Positions 1 to 6,090 of a stretch of 6,090 nucleotides of DNA are shown one piece after another. The stretch's first letter is position 1. Every line of letters starts with the position of its first letter. The DNA comes from Escherichia phage Lilleven. The notes below the pieces were generated by a model. The model was not told the DNA's origin. It was given only the letters and a program-made list of their open reading frames with translations, and did no database searches. The DNA is taken from sequence record MK629527.1; one strand, given 5' to 3'. The position numbers and the translations under genes are program-made.

Positions 1-1485
1 ATGGCTACTGAAATCTTCTCTGATGTTGTTAAGTCTGTTTGGTCGCACGCTACGGCTAAGCATGCTCATCTTCGTATGGCTGTTCAGGTTGATAATCGTA
101 GCCGCCTTCTTTCTGACCTCGTTTATCAGTTGGAAAAACGCCTTTCTGAAGAGACTCATTTGGATGGCGATATTTTTGCCGTTTATGAATCTCAGACCGC
201 CCTTCTGGAAGACCATATGGCATTGGTTCGGAAGTGTGCAGCCCAACTTGATAATAGTAACACTATAGACCACCGCACCTCCTTGGATGCCGAATGTGTT
301 TTCCTGTTTGAGATGATTTGTCCAGGTGTTCGTTACGGTAAAACGTTGAATTCTCTTTGGACTAAGTATGTCGCCCAGTGGCCTGAGAAGTTGATTCGTC
401 AGGAGTTGGATATGGTTAAGCCTTTATCCTTTAAGGATGAGGTTGCTAAGTACATGGAGAAAATGCAGGAAAAAACACGCAAGAATCGCATGACTCAGAA
501 AGTCATTAATGAGATGCGTATTGCTCACCAAAAGGGCTGGTTCTTCGTATTTGATACGTTGACCCTTGCTGATGACCGTTTGCAGGCTTTTAATGAAAAC
601 CCCAATGCTCTTCGTGATTATTTTAGGACTGTTGGTCGAGCTGTTCTGCGCGCTGAAGGTCGTTCGGTTAAAGATTCCTACAACGATTGCTATCGCTATC
701 TTTGTGTGCCGGAGTTTGGAGGTCAGCACGGCCGTCTTCATTGGCACGTTGTGCATATGGTGCGGACTCTCCCTTTGGGAAGTCACGACCCTAATTTCGG
801 TCGCAAGGTACGTAATTATCGCCAGATTAACTCGTTCCGTGGCATGTGGCCCTATGGCTTCACGCAACCGATAGCCGTTCGCTATCAGCATGACGCTTAT
901 TCCCGCAAAGGTTGGCTTTGGCCTGTTGACAAAACAGGAAAAGCAATGCAGAGTAAGCCGTATCAGGCGGTCGCATGGTATGTGACCAAGTATGTAGCTA
1001 AGCAATCTGACCAGCGTCAGAAAGCTATTACCGAGAGGCAAAAGAAATGCAAGAATCCATTAATGGCAATCTGTCTGAAGAAAGTATTTCGGGTTCGCAG
1101 CAGTCGGAAGCTTGGAATGGAGCTCCCGTCAATGGCTCACCTGAGCAACAGGGTGCTTCTGGAACTGAGCCGAATCAGTTTCGATTCCAGTCCTCTGTAT
1201 CAGATAGTGAAAGAGAACGCCAAAAAGCAATTGACCTTGAACATCGGCGCGCTGCCTTTGCACGTCATTTTGGATGTGCGCCCGGAAGTGAGAAGCATGT
1301 TGAAAACTATTCGTCGTTTGATGAAAAAGACACCCGAGTTCAATTGGCAGAGTTCTATCGCTTCAATGACGGTCACTTTAAAAAATGGGGATATTTCTGA
1401 TGAAGCACGTCAATACATTATTGATGCAGGAATTACGCCTACTGATTTGCGAGCTAAAGCTACTCAAACTTTCGGCGGTAAGTGA
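1..1485 (+). CDS. A: Replication initiation protein A (rolling-circle nicking-joining endonuclease)
   Basis: 494-aa ORF; translation is collinear with phiX174 gene A protein as I recall it (e.g. DGWFxVFDTLTLADDRLxAFxxNPNALRDYFR, VRYxxDAxSRxGWLWPVD, C-terminal ...GGK). Paired catalytic tyrosines in WYVTKYV (codons 979-981 and 991-993) and an HxH motif (GRLHWHVVH). Contains the 30-nt origin. If the molecule is circular, the upstream frame is closed by TAA at 6040-6042 with no ATG before position 1. Confidence 0.92.
   Translation: MATEIFSDVVKSVWSHATAKHAHLRMAVQVDNRSRLLSDLVYQLEKRLSEETHLDGDIFAVYESQTALLEDHMALVRKCAAQLDNSNTIDHRTSLDAECVFLFEMICPGVRYGKTLNSLWTKYVAQWPEKLIRQELDMVKPLSFKDEVAKYMEKMQEKTRKNRMTQKVINEMRIAHQKGWFFVFDTLTLADDRLQAFNENPNALRDYFRTVGRAVLRAEGRSVKDSYNDCYRYLCVPEFGGQHGRLHWHVVHMVRTLPLGSHDPNFGRKVRNYRQINSFRGMWPYGFTQPIAVRYQHDAYSRKGWLWPVDKTGKAMQSKPYQAVAWYVTKYVAKQSDQRQKAITERQKKCKNPLMAICLKKVFRVRSSRKLGMELPSMAHLSNRVLLELSRISFDSSPLYQIVKENAKKQLTLNIGALPLHVILDVRPEVRSMLKTIRRLMKKTPEFNWQSSIASMTVTLKNGDISDEARQYIIDAGITPTDLRAKATQTFGGK
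244..273 (+). other. Viral (+) strand origin of rolling-circle replication (A-protein recognition and nick site)
   Basis: CAACTTGATAATAGTAACACTATAGACCAC matches the 30-nt phiX174-group origin (CAACTTG^ATATTAATAACACTATAGACCAC) at 28 of 30 positions. Expected nick between G250 and A251. Lies inside gene A as in phiX174 and G4. Confidence 0.85.
454..1485 (+). CDS. A*: A* (in-frame internal restart product of gene A)
   Basis: In phiX-like phages A* starts at an internal in-frame Met about one third into A. ATG at 454 (MEKMQEK...) follows AAGGATGAGG (433-443) and aligns with the phiX A* start region (MKSRRGFAIQRLMNAMRQAH vs MQEKTRKNRMTQKVINEMRIAH). In-frame ATGs at 463 and 490 are alternatives; exact start not resolvable by eye. 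Confidence 0.4.
   Translation: MEKMQEKTRKNRMTQKVINEMRIAHQKGWFFVFDTLTLADDRLQAFNENPNALRDYFRTVGRAVLRAEGRSVKDSYNDCYRYLCVPEFGGQHGRLHWHVVHMVRTLPLGSHDPNFGRKVRNYRQINSFRGMWPYGFTQPIAVRYQHDAYSRKGWLWPVDKTGKAMQSKPYQAVAWYVTKYVAKQSDQRQKAITERQKKCKNPLMAICLKKVFRVRSSRKLGMELPSMAHLSNRVLLELSRISFDSSPLYQIVKENAKKQLTLNIGALPLHVILDVRPEVRSMLKTIRRLMKKTPEFNWQSSIASMTVTLKNGDISDEARQYIIDAGITPTDLRAKATQTFGGK
1047..1400 (+). CDS. B: Internal scaffolding protein B (encoded within A in an alternative frame)
   Basis: 117-aa ORF inside A. C-terminal half resembles phiX174 B (..AEFYRFNDGHFKKWGYF vs phiX ..AEFYRFHDAEVNTFGYF); Gln/Glu/Ser-rich N-terminus. SD GAGG at 1035-1038, 8 nt before ATG 1047. Confidence 0.85.
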   Translation: MQESINGNLSEESISGSQQSEAWNGAPVNGSPEQQGASGTEPNQFRFQSSVSDSERERQKAIDLEHRRAAFARHFGCAPGSEKHVENYSSFDEKDTRVQLAEFYRFNDGHFKKWGYF

Positions 1486-2277: not shown

Positions 2278-2293
2278 GGCCTTCGGGCCTTTT
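2278..2293 (+). terminator. J-F intergenic hairpin (GGCC-UUCG-GGCC) followed by TTTT; weak terminator or mRNA-stability element
   Basis: 4-bp G/C stem 2278-2281/2286-2289 with TTCG tetraloop 2282-2285, then TTTT 2290-2293, immediately upstream of the F SD AAGGA (2294-2298). The position matches the leaky T_J terminator of phiX-like phages. Confidence 0.45.
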
Positions 2294-2304
2294 AAGGATT
2301 ATTA

Positions 2305-3603: not shown

Positions 3604-3621
3604 ATGGGCCTTCGGGCCCAT
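3604..3621 (+). terminator. F-G intergenic hairpin (7-bp stem, UUCG tetraloop); weak terminator or mRNA-stability element
   Basis: ATGGGCC (3604-3610) pairs with GGCCCAT (3615-3621) around TTCG (3611-3614), followed by TTAAGGATTTTTC carrying the G SD. Same module as at J-F. Not followed by a clean T-run, so terminator function is uncertain. Confidence 0.45.
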
Positions 3622-3633
3622 TAAGGATTTTTC

Positions 3634-4197
3634 ATGTATCAAAATTTTGTTACTAAGCACGATACCGCTATTCAGACCTCCCGTTTCTCTGTTACTGACA
3701 GTATCACTCCTGTTGCGCCTACTGGTGATATCCCTATTATCAATACTGGTAATATTACTGCTGAGCGTGCTGTTGTTAGTCTTTATGCTAATTTGGCCGC
3801 TGACACCTCTTCTGATGGTTCTTTTATTGTTGCTATGAAGGTTGATACTTCTCCTGCTGATCCTAACTGTGTTATCTCTGCTGGTGTTAACCTTAGCTTT
3901 GCTGGTACCTCATACCCGATTGTTGGCATTGTTCGTTTTGAGTCTGCTTCTGAACAGCCCACTTCTATTGCTGGTAGTCAGATTGAGCGTTACCCTATTG
4001 AAATGTCTGTGGGCTCTGGTGGTGTCTGTTCTGCTCGTGATTGCGTTACTGTTGATATTCATCCTCGCACCTTTGGCAATAATGTTTTTGTTGGTGTGAT
4101 TTGCTCCAGTGCTAAATGGACCTCCGGCCTTGTGCTTGGTACTATCGCTACGACTCAGGTTATTCATGAGTATCAGGTTCTTCAGCCGCTCAAATAA
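3634..4197 (+). CDS. G: Major spike protein G
   Basis: 187-aa ORF at the position of G. Shares the conserved C-terminal region with phiX174 G (VRFES.S..PT.....YP, KDCVT.D..PRT.GNNV.VG, C-terminal QVI.E...LQPLK). SD AAGGA 3623-3627, 6 nt before ATG. Confidence 0.93.
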
Positions 4198-4332: not shown

Positions 4333-5331
4333 ATGTTTGGAAGTATCATTGGAGGCATTGGCTCATCGCTGCTCGGAGGACTTGCTTCCGGCGGTATCTC
4401 CAGCCTCCTTAATAAAATGTTCAGTAAAATGCCAGAACATGCCGCTTCTTCTGCTGGTCTTACTAATGGTCAAGGTACTATTGGTATGGATACTGATGCT
4501 GGTATTCAGTCTGCTATTCAGGGCTCTAATGTTCCTCCTGCTGGTCAATTACCCGCTTCCAACACTTCTGGTGTTATGGCTGATGCTGGTAATATGATTC
4601 GTAATGCTGGCAGAGCTTTGCTTGATGGTACGATTCAGGCCGGTTCTGACAAGGTTAAAGAGGCTCTTATTGATAAGTTGGTTGGAGGTAATGATGCTAA
4701 AGACCGAGGAAAGGCAACCCGTGATTACTTGGCGGCAGCTTTCCCTGAGCTCAACCCATGGGAACGTGCTGGAGCTGGTGCTTCCACTGCCGGGTTAGAA
4801 TCTTCTGCTCAGAATCAACAAAAAGAGATGCTTAAAATGCAACTGGATAACCAGAAAGATATTGCAAAAATGCAGATGGATAACAATTTGCAGATTGCTG
4901 GTATTCAGTCTGCTACATCTCGCCAGAACACGAAGGATTCTGTTTATGCCCAGAATGAGATGCTTCAGTATAATCAACGTGAGTCGCAGGCACGCGTTGC
5001 GTCTATCCTCGCCAACACTGACCTTACGACTAAGCAGGCCACCCATGAAATTATGAGGATGGCTCTTACTCGTGCTCAGGAAACCGGTCAGCATTTGACT
5101 AACTCTCAGATTATGGCTTTGGAGAAAAAGGTTTATGCAGAAATTGGAAAAATTCATCAAGATACTCAAAATTCTCGCTATGGTAGCTCTCAAGTTACTG
5201 CCGCCGCGAAAGACGTTACTAACATGATTACTGACGCTTCTTCAGGTTTTGCTGATTGGGCTTCCCAGCAGTGGAATTCGTTCTTTAAAGATGGTAAGTC
5301 TGACGGTATTCCTCTCAATACTAGAAAATAA
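4333..5331 (+). CDS. H: DNA pilot (minor spike) protein H
   Basis: 332-aa ORF. Gly-rich N-terminus MFGSIIGGIGSSLLGG.. and long collinear matches to phiX174 H (AGIQSAIQGSNVP, TRDYLAAAFPELN.WERAGA, KMQLDNQK.IA.MQ, IAGIQSATSRQNTKD.VYAQNEML.Y.Q.ES.ARVASI, QNSRYGSS). SD AAGGAG 4319-4324. Confidence 0.93.
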   Translation: MFGSIIGGIGSSLLGGLASGGISSLLNKMFSKMPEHAASSAGLTNGQGTIGMDTDAGIQSAIQGSNVPPAGQLPASNTSGVMADAGNMIRNAGRALLDGTIQAGSDKVKEALIDKLVGGNDAKDRGKATRDYLAAAFPELNPWERAGAGASTAGLESSAQNQQKEMLKMQLDNQKDIAKMQMDNNLQIAGIQSATSRQNTKDSVYAQNEMLQYNQRESQARVASILANTDLTTKQATHEIMRMALTRAQETGQHLTNSQIMALEKKVYAEIGKIHQDTQNSRYGSSQVTAAAKDVTNMITDASSGFADWASQQWNSFFKDGKSDGIPLNTRK

Positions 5332-5358
5332 TTGTTGACATTCCTTGAACCTTTATGT

Positions 5359-5396
5359 GACTCTTGCTTCAATAAAACGAAGTAGGAGTCTTTTTT
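5359..5396 (+). terminator. Rho-independent terminator-like hairpin downstream of H; 3' arm contains the SD of the next ORF
   Basis: GACTCTTGCTTC (5359-5370) pairs with GAAGTAGGAGTC (5379-5390): 12 bp including two G.U pairs, loop AATAAAAC, followed by TTTTTT (5391-5396). The 3' arm contains AGGAG (5384-5388) and the ORF ATG follows at 5397. A perfect -35 hexamer TTGACA sits at 5335-5340. Confidence 0.6.
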
Positions 5397-5765
5397 ATGA
5401 AACCCGCTCACCGCCTTTATCATCCTGTGCTTGGTTCTTGGTTGTTTAAGTGTCCCGTTTATATTCGTTATGAGTCCCTTCATCATGGCCGCCTCATTAA
5501 GGTTCGTGCTGTTCGTGACCTTTCTCCGCGTCAGCAGTTGATTGCCAATCCTAAAAATTGCTTTGACGTTGTTATTGCTGAAATTGACGTTACTCACCTT
5601 TCTGTCACTTGGTATGATTTTCAAGCCGAAGAGTATGTCGAGTGTGATTCCGGCACTATGGAGCTTCTTCTTTCTCAGGTAAATTCTGGCGAGGTTATTC
5701 GCTCCTCCGAAGACCTGTTTGTTGATGTTGATGATATGGAATGGCTTTATGAAATTGTGGAGTAA
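5397..5765 (+). CDS. Hypothetical protein (122 aa) in the H-A intergenic region; no recognisable family
   Basis: ORF with SD AGGAG (5384-5388) 8 nt before ATG. Codon usage by eye matches the phage's structural genes (T-ending codons cgt, gtt, ctt, tct, gct, gat). Same strand as all known genes. Translation MKPAHRLYHPVLGSW...DVDDMEWLYEIVE has an acidic C-terminus and no motif I recognise. Confidence 0.5.
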   Translation: MKPAHRLYHPVLGSWLFKCPVYIRYESLHHGRLIKVRAVRDLSPRQQLIANPKNCFDVVIAEIDVTHLSVTWYDFQAEEYVECDSGTMELLLSQVNSGEVIRSSEDLFVDVDDMEWLYEIVE

Positions 5766-5768
5766 GTC

Positions 5769-5858
5769 ATGGAAACTGTTATTGGAAAATTTATTGCTCT
5801 GGCCGTTGTTGCTCTTATGCTGTATGGAATTTCTCGCTTGATTCGGAGGTTCCCGTGA
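5769..5858 (+). CDS. Hypothetical small membrane peptide (29 aa, single predicted transmembrane helix)
   Basis: Not in the ORF track. ATG 5769 is 3 nt after the stop of the preceding ORF and 6 nt after GGAG (5759-5762). METVIGKFIALAVVALMLYGISRLIRRFP: about 17 hydrophobic residues followed by a basic tail. Very short, so chance is not excluded. Confidence 0.3.
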   Translation: METVIGKFIALAVVALMLYGISRLIRRFP

Positions 5859-6031
5859 AATATTTTAGTTTTGTAGATGAACATTATGCTTACTGCCCTG
5901 ATACAAGGATTTTGCACATCACTCGCAGTCGTATTTCTGACCCTCGGTATGAGCGTTGCTTTCTTACTGACGAGGAGCATCTTGCACTTTTGGATTGGTT
6001 GAAAAATTATCCAACTTTCATTAATTCTTGA
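5855..6031 (+). CDS. Hypothetical protein (58 aa), GTG start overlapping the upstream stop (GTGA)
   Basis: Not in the ORF track. GTG 5855 overlaps the TGA of the 29-codon ORF, with GGAGG (5845-5849) 5 nt upstream. Translation (M)KYFSFVDEHYAYCPDTRILHITRSRISDPRYERCFLTDEEHLALLDWLKNYPTFINS; T-ending codon bias like the rest of the genome. Stop TGA 6029-6031 overlaps the -35 hexamer of the promoter before A. Confidence 0.35.
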   Translation: MKYFSFVDEHYAYCPDTRILHITRSRISDPRYERCFLTDEEHLALLDWLKNYPTFINS

Positions 6032-6057
6032 CAGACCTTTAAAATACCCTCTATATT
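6028..6057 (+). promoter_or_regulatory. Candidate sigma70 promoter for gene A (P_A)
   Basis: TTGACA (6028-6033), 18-nt spacer, TATATT (6052-6057): consensus -35 and near-consensus -10. Located about 35-60 nt upstream of the gene A ATG if the window is circular (position 6090 joins position 1). Confidence 0.55.
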
Positions 6058-6087
6058 GCCCTCATAGTTTCACTACGAGGGCTTTTT
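6058..6087 (+). terminator. Terminator-like hairpin plus T5 between the P_A -10 and the A start codon (T_H-like)
   Basis: GCCCTC (6058-6063) pairs with GAGGGC (6077-6082), plus inner TAG/CTA pairs (6065-6067 vs 6073-6075), then TTTTT (6083-6087). The 3' arm contains GAGGG, the likely SD for A. The 5' arm starts right after the -10, so P_A-initiated transcripts would probably lack it. Confidence 0.5.
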
Positions 6088-6090
6088 CGC

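What the first reader, a model, noticed from the sequence alone, without database searches (positions are those of the whole stretch)
6028..6090. Promoter and terminator interleaved immediately upstream of gene A
The -10 hexamer TATATT ends at 6057 and the hairpin's 5' arm begins at 6058. Transcripts started at this promoter would begin inside the hairpin and escape termination, whereas readthrough transcripts from upstream would form the full hairpin and stop. This is a compact way to insulate A expression from the upstream late transcript, consistent with my recollection of overlapping P_A and T_H in phiX174. The inference depends on the window being a circular genome joined at 6090/1.
Basis: partly seen in the sequence, partly recalled or inferred. 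Interest (0 to 1): 0.45.

Follow-up and report, generated by a model that had tools for sequence, protein, structure and literature searches.

The report
Overlapping gene-A promoter and terminator
Just upstream of the replication gene A of this small circular phage, a strong promoter runs directly into a terminator hairpin; this is the already documented phiX174 "pA-TH" design, here in an alpha3-type relative, so it is real but ordinary.

Summary
TTGACA (6028-6033), an 18-nt spacer and TATATT (6052-6057) are followed at 6058 by a hairpin (6058-6082, -14.2 kcal/mol) and T5 (6083-6087). Then come CGC and, across the circular junction, the ATG of gene A.

The window is a complete alpha3-like microvirus genome (Alphatrevirus). 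More than 20 relatives, linearised at other points, read straight through 6090/1.

- **Promoter:** it is the only sigma-70 match of at least 10/12 in the genome.
- **Hairpin:** it is conserved, with G-U and compensatory changes.
- **Spacing:** only 0-1 nt ever separates the -10 from the stem.
- **Other genera:** phiX174 and G4 share the layout. In phiX174 the start site is annotated 7 nt into the stem, and RNA-seq shows a combined "pA-TH" element.

- The hairpin's invariant 3' arm is gene A's Shine-Dalgarno sequence.
- H has its own, stronger hairpin at 5359-5396.
- The 759-nt H-A "spacer" carries three conserved ORFs that RefSeq does not annotate (122, 29 and 58 aa). The nearest upstream gene is therefore ORF58, not H.
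- Phage NC35 has lost both the -10 and the 5' arm in one 29-nt deletion.

No transcript ends have been mapped in this phage group. Verdict: a real orthologue of a known element, of low novelty.

The parts
6028..6033 (+). -35 hexamer TTGACA of the gene-A promoter (pA). It also contains the stop codon TGA 6029-6031 of ORF58.
   Evidence: Invariant in 22 of 23 alpha3-like sequences; phiK has TTGGCA, which also removes the ORF58 stop.
6034..6051 (+). 18-nt promoter spacer
   Evidence: The length is fixed in all 23 relatives while the sequence varies freely, as expected for a promoter spacer.
6052..6057 (+). -10 hexamer TATATT
   Evidence: TATA is invariant; the only variant is TATAGT in ID32.
6058..6082 (+). 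Terminator-type hairpin: 6 bp GCCCTC/GAGGGC, an A.C mismatch (6064/6076), 4 bp TAGT/ACTA, loop TTC. Bases 6058-6063 also serve as the G/C-rich discriminator of pA.
   Evidence: Fold -14.2 kcal/mol, z -6.5. The outer helix is 100% paired in 20 distinct sequences, with 6 G-U variants and a UA<->AU compensatory pair.
6064..6064 (+). Predicted transcription start of pA (A, 7 nt after the -10; +/-2 nt)
   Evidence: Inferred from sigma-70 geometry and from phiX174, whose annotated start 3962 is also the 7th base of its hairpin. This position is a purine in all 23 relatives.
6077..6081 (+). Shine-Dalgarno GAGGG of gene A, inside the 3' arm of the hairpin
   Evidence: Invariant in all 23 sequences. 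The same arrangement occurs in phiX174 and G4 (GGAGG).
6083..6087 (+). T-run (U-tract) of the terminator; also the spacer between the SD and the AUG
   Evidence: T4-T6 in all relatives.
1..1485 (+). Gene A (replication initiator, 494 aa), the gene this element controls
   Evidence: same length and position as A of alpha3 and St-1.
5855..6031 (+). ORF58, a conserved ORF not annotated in RefSeq. It is the gene immediately upstream, so it defines the transcript that reaches the hairpin.
   Evidence: Intact in 17 of 19 aligned relatives (phiK has lost the stop; contig L034 is frameshifted near the 3' end). Variable sites by codon position 17/12/33. Gene callers predict it on metagenomic contigs.
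5769..5858 (+). ORF29, a conserved hydrophobic 29-aa ORF (METVIGKFIALAVVALMLYGISRLIRRFP). Its stop overlaps the ORF58 start (GTGA).
5397..5765 (+). ORF122, a conserved ORF not annotated in RefSeq
   Evidence: Variable sites by codon position 45/36/100. 19 homologues, 17 of them 120-122 aa, most on contigs of alpha3-like genome size (~6 kb). Confident model, pLDDT 89.
5335..5396 (+). Post-H module: TTGACA 5335-5340, 18 nt, then a 12-bp hairpin 5359-5390 containing AGGAG, T6 5391-5396, then the ATG of ORF122. This is the terminator actually adjacent to H.
   Evidence: terminator scan; -17.9 kcal/mol, z -6.1; conservation; the T-run is interrupted in some clades.

Best explanation
This is the Alphatrevirus orthologue of the phiX174 pA-TH composite element. 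One 63-nt stretch carries four functions:
- a near-consensus sigma-70 promoter for gene A;
- a G/C-rich discriminator that is also the 5' arm of a hairpin;
- an intrinsic-terminator hairpin plus U-tract;
- gene A's ribosome-binding site, which lies in the 3' arm.

RNA arriving from upstream is late transcript that has read through the post-H hairpin and the ORF122-ORF29-ORF58 cassette. It contains both arms and folds the hairpin. Most of it terminates in the U-tract at about 6083-6090. Any that escapes has the Shine-Dalgarno sequence paired.

RNA started at pA begins at about A6064, after the GCCCTC arm. It cannot form the stem, so it escapes termination and carries a free Shine-Dalgarno on a 27-nt leader. 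Gene A expression is thus set mainly by its own promoter and not by the much larger flow of late transcripts around the circle.

Shown here: the sequence features, their statistical excess, conservation and covariation, and the layout shared with phiX174 and G4. Taken from phiX174 experiments: a start site inside the stem and net termination across the element. Inferred for this phage: the start site, the termination efficiency and the masking of the Shine-Dalgarno.
For: - **Coordinates and promoter score:**
- **Hairpin energy and rank:**
- **RNA from 6064 is unstructured:**
- **Circular contiguity:**
- **Conservation in 23 alpha3-like sequences:** hexamers conserved, spacer length fixed but sequence variable, 0-1 nt between the -10 and the stem.
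- **Pairing:** 90.5% of cells are paired, against 36-52% for slid controls. The outer helix is always paired. C-to-U changes occur only in the 5' arm, giving G-U pairs that work only in the + sense. There is a UA<->AU compensatory pair, and the A.C mismatch is repaired to A-U or G-C in 7 sequences.
- **Same layout in other genera:** phiX174, G4, ID18, ID52 and ID8. There are two compensatory swaps between genera (GCCTCC/GGAGGC versus GCCCTC/GAGGGC).
- **phiX174 data:** start site 3962 annotated in NC_001422; pA given as 3927..3962 in PMC11527146 Table 1; Logel & Jaschke report the overlap and a net 0.29-fold current across it.
- **No sense ORF covers 6032-6090:**
Against: - No 5' or 3' ends have been mapped in any alpha3-type phage that I could find.
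- The U-tract is short (T5, T4 in NC3 and L019) and the stem has a mismatch, so termination may be weak.
- A stronger hairpin+T6 directly after H (5359-5396) may already remove most late transcripts.
- Phage NC35 lacks the -10 and the 5' arm through a 29-nt deletion and has no promoter-like site in its spacer. The element is therefore not indispensable.
- Conservation of the -35 is partly explained by the ORF58 stop codon, and conservation of the 3' arm by its role as Shine-Dalgarno.
Confidence: 0.78

Rival explanations
1. The hairpin is kept mainly for RNA-level roles other than termination. It would mask gene A's Shine-Dalgarno on read-through transcripts, or protect the 3' ends of late mRNAs from exonucleases. 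The post-H hairpin would do the real terminating. The promoter reading is unchanged.
For: - The invariant 3' arm is the SD.
- The post-H hairpin is stronger (-17.9 versus -14.2 kcal/mol, T6 versus T5).
- The T-run is only T4 in NC3 and L019.
Against: - The T-run directly after the stem is kept at T4-T6 in all 23 relatives, although SD masking or 3'-end protection alone would not need it. The T-run also spaces the SD from the AUG, which could constrain it too.
- The post-H T-run is interrupted (TTTGCTT, TTTATT) in several clades.
- The orthologous phiX174 element measurably lowers transcript levels.
- These roles are not mutually exclusive with termination.
Confidence: 0.13
2. Attenuator model: gene A transcripts start upstream of the hairpin, for example from the TAAAAT at 6040-6045. 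They include the whole terminator, which then throttles A expression as a leader terminator.
For: - TAAAAT at 6040-6045 is a 5/6 match to a -10.
- Protein A is needed only in small amounts (Logel & Jaschke discussion).
Against: - The best -35 for TAAAAT is TTCATT (3/6; 8/12 overall), below the scan threshold.
- TAAAAT is not conserved: relatives have TGAAAT, TAACCC, TAAATC, GATACA.
- The conserved -10 abuts the stem, leaving no room for a start upstream of the 5' arm.
- The phiX174 start is inside the stem.
Confidence: 0.04
3. The hairpin is a structure of the packaged single-stranded (+) DNA, with a role in replication or packaging and none in RNA. Its position next to a promoter would be incidental.
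For: - The genome is ssDNA of the same sense.
- The G-T wobble changes are confined to the + strand, which a DNA hairpin would also tolerate to some degree.
Against: - The T-run, the SD in the 3' arm and the abutting -10 are all unexplained by a DNA role.
- From my own knowledge, not tested here: the known origins of these phages lie elsewhere (viral-strand origin inside gene A, complementary-strand origin in the G-H gap).
- NC35 is viable without the 5' arm.
Confidence: 0.03
4. Chance co-occurrence of a promoter-like and a terminator-like string with no function.
For: Consensus scans give about 10 weak promoter-like hits per shuffled genome.
Against: - An 11/12 match is expected 0.13 times per genome, and this one sits on the right strand about 60 nt before gene A.
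- Hairpin z = -6.5.
- Conservation, covariation and recurrence in three genera.
Confidence: 0.01

Closest known systems
phiX174 pA-TH composite promoter/terminator (H-A intergenic region, nt 3927-3980 of NC_001422)
   Same: - Position immediately before the gene A ATG on a circular genome.
- TTGACA -35, and a -10 region ending exactly where a G/C-rich stem begins.
- The SD lies in the 3' arm, followed by a T-run and then the ATG.
- The predicted start (7th stem base) matches the annotated phiX174 start at 3962.
- The overlap is documented, with a net 0.29-fold transcript change.
   Different: - The -10 here is near-consensus (TATATT), whereas phiX174 has a poor one (TTTCAT at the 17-nt spacing).
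- The stem is longer and interrupted (6+4 bp with an A.C mismatch, versus 8 bp).
- Three extra bases (CGC) lie between the T-run and the ATG.
- In phiX174 the element follows H directly and is the only H terminator. Here it is 727 nt from H, behind a separate post-H hairpin and three conserved ORFs.
- No transcript mapping exists for this phage group.
G4-type gene-A upstream element (Gequatrovirus: G4, ID52, ID8, ID18)
   Same: TTGACT, 18 nt, TAATAT, then directly GCCTCC...GGAGGC, TTTT(C) and ATG. Of the other three modules compared (post-H, phiX174, G4), this one aligns best with the window's element (z 4.8).
   Different: - The stem is 6 bp with an 8-nt loop.
- The stem sequence differs by two compensatory swaps.
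- H abuts the element, as in phiX174.
Generic Rho-independent (intrinsic) terminator
   Same: A G/C-rich stem-loop followed at once by a U-tract. The energy is comparable with the phiX174 TH hairpin (-12.8 kcal/mol).
   Different: A promoter is nested in front of it, so that one class of transcripts starts inside the stem. The 3' arm doubles as a ribosome-binding site.
Leader-terminator attenuators (e.g. trp, pyrBI)
   Same: A terminator lies between a promoter and the start codon of the regulated gene.
   Different: In attenuators the transcript contains the whole terminator, and an alternative fold decides the outcome. Here the promoter's own transcripts lack the 5' arm, so the decision depends on where the transcript began. 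No antiterminator alternative was seen.

Membership tests
phiX174-type pA-TH composite element (Bullavirinae) | [quoted passage not shown] | tested here: met
   Element 6028-6087, ATG at 1. The junction is confirmed by more than 20 relatives.
phiX174-type pA-TH composite element (Bullavirinae) | The end of the promoter (-10) is immediately followed by the first base of the terminator stem | tested here: met
   The -10 ends at 6057 and the stem starts at 6058. The gap is 0 nt in 20 and 1 nt in 3 of the 23 relatives, and 0 nt in phiX174, G4 and ID18.
phiX174-type pA-TH composite element (Bullavirinae) | G/C-rich hairpin followed by a T-run | tested here: met
   -14.2 kcal/mol, z -6.5, T5. Covariation and G-U changes support it.
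phiX174-type pA-TH composite element (Bullavirinae) | Gene A's Shine-Dalgarno lies in the 3' arm, and the T-run is the SD-AUG spacer | tested here: met
   GAGGG 6077-6081 is invariant. phiX174 and G4 have GGAGG in the 3' arm.
phiX174-type pA-TH composite element (Bullavirinae) | The transcription start lies inside the 5' arm of the stem (phiX174: 3962) | not testable with these tools
   Predicted at A6064 from the -10 position. This site is a purine in all relatives. It needs 5' end mapping.
phiX174-type pA-TH composite element (Bullavirinae) | Measured net loss of transcripts arriving from upstream | not testable with these tools
   Known only for phiX174 (0.29-fold). No alpha3-group RNA data were found.
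phiX174-type pA-TH composite element (Bullavirinae) | Follows gene H directly (hence the name TH) | tested here: not met
   H ends at 5331. A separate hairpin+T6 (5359-5396) and ORF122/29/58 lie in between. This is a difference of context, not of the element itself.
Sigma-70 promoter | -35 and -10 hexamers at 16-18 nt spacing, with hexamers conserved and spacer sequence free | tested here: met
   11/12 match and the only site of at least 10/12. Conservation pattern. Activity was not tested.
Leader-terminator attenuator | The transcript starts upstream of the complete terminator | tested here: not met
   The conserved -10 abuts the stem, and the alternative -10 TAAAAT is not conserved.
Rfam-curated RNA families | A match at gathering score | tested here: not met
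   0 matches in the whole window.

The most novel reading that the evidence does not exclude
The 759-nt H-A 'intergenic region' of alpha3-type phages is an accessory cassette of three genes that RefSeq does not annotate (ORF122, the membrane-like ORF29, and ORF58). It is bracketed by two diverged copies of one module: TTGACA, then a hairpin containing an SD, then a T-run and an ATG. Recombination between the two copies would gain or lose the cassette, which would explain the size difference between 6.1-kb alpha3-type and 5.4-5.6-kb phiX174/G4-type genomes. The gene A copy would act as a start-site-dependent switch on both the transcription and the translation of A.
Probability: 0.3. Interest if true: 0.45.

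Novelty: new member of a known kind. Interest (0 to 1): 0.2.

Why it matters
This instance adds little. It shows that the phiX174 solution to transcribing a circular genome is conserved, with compensatory changes, across all three Bullavirinae genera. That solution nests gene A's promoter inside the terminator that stops the late transcripts, and places A's ribosome-binding site in the same stem.

It is useful for annotating and re-engineering alpha3-type genomes. No promoters, terminators or H-A ORFs are annotated in the GenBank/RefSeq genome records I inspected (two of the ORFs appear as misc_features in MG945254).

The more useful by-products:
- A natural deletion (NC35) removes the promoter -10 and the terminator arm together.
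- The so-called intergenic region upstream holds three conserved ORFs of unknown function.

Tried and rejected
- **Simple terminator scan:** it did not list the hairpin because it allows no mismatch. I re-scanned with constrained folding at every T-run.
- **Alternative -10 TAAAAT 6040-6045 (attenuator model):** rejected. It is 8/12 overall and not conserved.
- **Minus-strand promoter-like site 6034->6006** (a possible parallel to phiX174 pR12): its -10 is not conserved in relatives.
- **Minus-strand ORF 273->6073 across the junction:** antisense to A, and treated as spurious.
- **Rfam, PHROGs, Pfam:** nothing.
- **More sequence diversity:** IMG/VR gave 3 new loci and the metagenome scan gave 4. 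Homologues of ORF122 gave 7 more. Covarying pairs remain few and probably reflect only 2-3 independent events.
- **Literature on alpha3 transcription:** not found. Rokyta 2006 (PMC1347346) is not held, searches were unproductive, and searches had nothing on this region.
- **Function of ORF122:** the model is confident, but there was no fold match in PDB or BFVD beyond an identical unnamed entry. The afdb50 library was unavailable.
- **Similarity of the post-H module to the pre-A and phiX174 modules:** z 3.9-5.1 on short sequences sharing obvious motifs. This is suggestive only and is not used as evidence for the main claim.

Full report
**What the window is.** The 6090-nt window is a complete genome of an alpha3-like microvirus (Microviridae, Bullavirinae, Alphatrevirus), linearised at the ATG of gene A.
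- Overall it is closest to St-1 (95%), then phiK (93%) and alpha3 (92%).
- The last 760 nt are closest to alpha3 (94%).
- The gene order is A/B/K/C/D/E/J/F/G/H, with A at 1-1485 and H at 4333-5331. This matches the annotated alpha3 and St-1 records.

**The observation.**
- TTGACA is at 6028-6033, followed by an 18-nt spacer and TATATT at 6052-6057.
- The hairpin starts at G6058 and runs GCCCTC-a-TAGT / loop TTC / ACTA-c-GAGGGC to 6082.
- T5 follows at 6083-6087, then CGC, then the ATG at position 1.

The promoter is the best in the genome, at 11/12, and is the only site of at least 10/12 on either strand. Dinucleotide shuffles give 0.13 such sites per genome. The hairpin folds at -14.2 kcal/mol (z -6.5) and survives in a 151-nt context.

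The simple scan missed the hairpin because of its one mismatch. A constrained-fold scan of all T-runs ranks it third on the + strand, and the top three all lie in non-coding gaps between ORFs: after H, after F, and before A.

**The circular junction.**
- In 13 GenBank genomes linearised elsewhere (most start just after H; MG945254 starts inside D), the sequence matching 5991-6090 runs straight into ATGGCTAC... of gene A.
- The same holds in about 10 metagenomic contigs.
- An in-frame TAA at 6040-6042 with no later start codon fixes the start of A at position 1.

**Comparative evidence.** I aligned 23 alpha3-like sequences, 20 of them distinct.
- The two hexamers are essentially invariant, while the spacer keeps its length and varies in sequence. 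This is the expected signature of a promoter.
- Only 0-1 nt ever separates the -10 from the stem.
- The outer 6-bp helix is paired in every sequence. Its only changes are C-to-U in the 5' arm and one C-to-U at the closing base, giving six G-U pairs that are viable only in the + sense.
- The pair 6065/6075 switches U-A to A-U in six sequences.
- The A.C mismatch 6064/6076 becomes A-U in six sequences and G-C in St-1.
- Overall, 90.5% of cells are paired, against 36-52% when the partner is slid.
- These changes probably represent only a few independent events, so the covariation is supportive but not overwhelming.
- The 3' arm GAGGG is invariant because it is also gene A's Shine-Dalgarno sequence.

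**The same design in the other genera.**
- phiX174 reads TTGACA(3927-3932)...TTTCAT|GCCTCCAAatcTTGGAGGC|TTTTTT|ATG(3981).
- G4, ID52 and ID8 read TTGACT-18-TAATAT|GCCTCC...GGAGGC|TTTTC|ATG, and ID18 is similar.
- Between genera the stem differs by two fully compensatory swaps (GCCTCC/GGAGGC versus GCCCTC/GAGGGC).

For phiX174 there is direct evidence.
- NC_001422 annotates a transcription start at 3962, the seventh base of the stem.
- PMC11527146 lists pA as 3927..3962.
[quoted passage not shown] They measure a net 0.29-fold change in transcript level across the 'combined pA-TH element'.

**Mechanism.** With the -10 at 6052-6057, initiation is expected at about A6064. This position is a purine in all relatives and is the same stem position as the phiX174 start.
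- Such RNA lacks GCCCTC and has no significant structure (-4.6 kcal/mol, z 0.3). It therefore cannot be terminated by this hairpin, and it has a free Shine-Dalgarno on a 27-nt leader.
- RNA entering from upstream has both arms and forms the stem directly before the U-tract. Any that reads through keeps the Shine-Dalgarno paired.
- As inference only, the G/C-rich 5' arm also occupies the discriminator position of the promoter, which may temper an otherwise near-consensus promoter.

For this phage, the start site, the termination efficiency and the translational masking are all inferred.

1. H has its own hairpin. The stretch 5359-5390 (-17.9 kcal/mol) plus T6 lies 28 nt after the H stop. It contains AGGAG and is followed at once by an ATG at 5397, and a conserved TTGACA lies 18 nt before it. 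The layout is the same as before gene A, but without a recognisable -10.
2. The 759-nt H-A 'intergenic region' is not empty. It holds ORF122 (5397-5765), ORF29 (5769-5858, hydrophobic) and ORF58 (5855-6031, with a GTGA start/stop overlap).
   - They are preserved, with few exceptions, across the 19 aligned genomes. The exceptions are frameshifts in ORF122 of the alpha3 (X60322/NC_001330) and St-1 records, possibly sequencing errors, and ORF58 changes in phiK (lost stop) and contig L034 (3' frameshift).
   - ORF122 and ORF58 show third-position-biased variation (45/36/100 and 17/12/33). ORF29 shows 16/5/11, without that bias.
   - ORF122 has 19 homologues, most on alpha3-like contigs of about 6 kb. 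It gives a confident model (pLDDT 89) with no fold match. An identical unnamed entry exists in BFVD.
   - The ORF58 stop codon lies inside the -35 hexamer.
   - The hairpin before A is therefore the terminator of a transcript whose last gene is ORF58. 'T_H' is a name borrowed from phiX174.
3. The post-H T-run is interrupted in several clades, while the pre-A T-run is always T4-T6. Which hairpin does most of the terminating may therefore differ between clades.
4. NC35 carries a 29-nt deletion that removes the -10 and the 5' arm together and leaves no promoter-like site in its spacer. The element is dispensable in at least one natural isolate. As inference, losing the promoter and the terminator arm together would let read-through supply gene A.

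**Rivals.**
- An attenuator reading fails because there is no room or conserved -10 for a start upstream of the stem.
- A purely ssDNA structural role leaves the T-run, the SD and the abutting -10 unexplained.
- Chance is excluded by the statistics and by recurrence in three genera.
- The only serious alternative is one of emphasis: in this group the hairpin may matter more for SD masking or 3'-end stability than for termination.

**Verdict.** I rate it a new member of a known kind, of low interest. The conserved three-ORF cassette and the duplicated module around it are the more open questions.

Noticed in passing
window 5397-5765, 5769-5858, 5855-6031: The H-A 'intergenic region' contains three tightly packed ORFs (122 aa; 29 aa hydrophobic; 58 aa, with a GTGA start/stop overlap), preserved with few exceptions in the 19 aligned alpha3-like relatives. 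None is annotated as a gene in the RefSeq records. ORF122 and ORF58 show third-codon-position-biased variation. ORF122 gives a confident beta-rich model (pLDDT 89) with no PDB fold match and no Pfam or PHROG family. BFVD holds an identical unnamed entry (A0A4D6DYX2).
   Followed up: partly
window 5335-5399: Directly after gene H there is a second module with the same layout as the one before gene A: a conserved TTGACA, 18 nt, a 12-bp hairpin containing AGGAG, T6, then the ATG of ORF122. It has no recognisable -10. It aligns best with the phiX174 pA-TH sequence (z 5.1), which hints at duplication or at gain or loss of the cassette between two module copies.
   Followed up: partly
L005 (phage NC35) 700-729, corresponding to window 6036-6064: A natural 29-nt deletion removes the -10 hexamer and the 5' arm of the hairpin together, and the 3' arm is changed to GAGGAC. 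No promoter-like site remains in the NC35 H-A spacer.
   Followed up: partly
L001 (alpha3, NC_001330) 24-433 and L002 (St-1) 23-432: ORF122 is frameshifted in the alpha3 (X60322/NC_001330) and St-1 records but intact in all other relatives. These are possibly sequencing errors in those records.
   Followed up: no
window 6034->6006, minus strand: A promoter-like site, CTGTCA-17-GATAAT (9/12), lies back-to-back with the pA -35. It recalls the antisense promoter pR12 reported near pA in phiX174, but its -10 is not conserved in relatives (ATTATC is ATCGCC there).
   Followed up: partly
window 273->6073, minus strand (across the circular junction): A 96-aa GTG-initiated ORF lies antisense to the 5' end of gene A and ends inside the hairpin's 3' arm. 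It is probably spurious.
   Followed up: no
window 2278-2304 and 3604-3633: The J-F and F-G gaps carry GGCCTTCGGGCC-type hairpins plus T-runs, followed by AAGGA and the next ATG. They look like counterparts of phiX174 TJ and TF. Two overlapping promoter-like sites (1687-1715 and 1715-1743) lie just before gene D.
   Followed up: no
L003 (phiK) 700-734: phiK has TTGGCA in place of TTGACA. The same change weakens the -35 and removes the ORF58 stop codon, extending that ORF to 70 aa so that it ends inside the hairpin.
   Followed up: no
whole window: The genome is a mosaic relative to known phages. It is closest overall to St-1 (95%), but its H-A region is closest to alpha3 (94% versus 90.5%), consistent with recombination among alpha3-like phages.
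   Followed up: no
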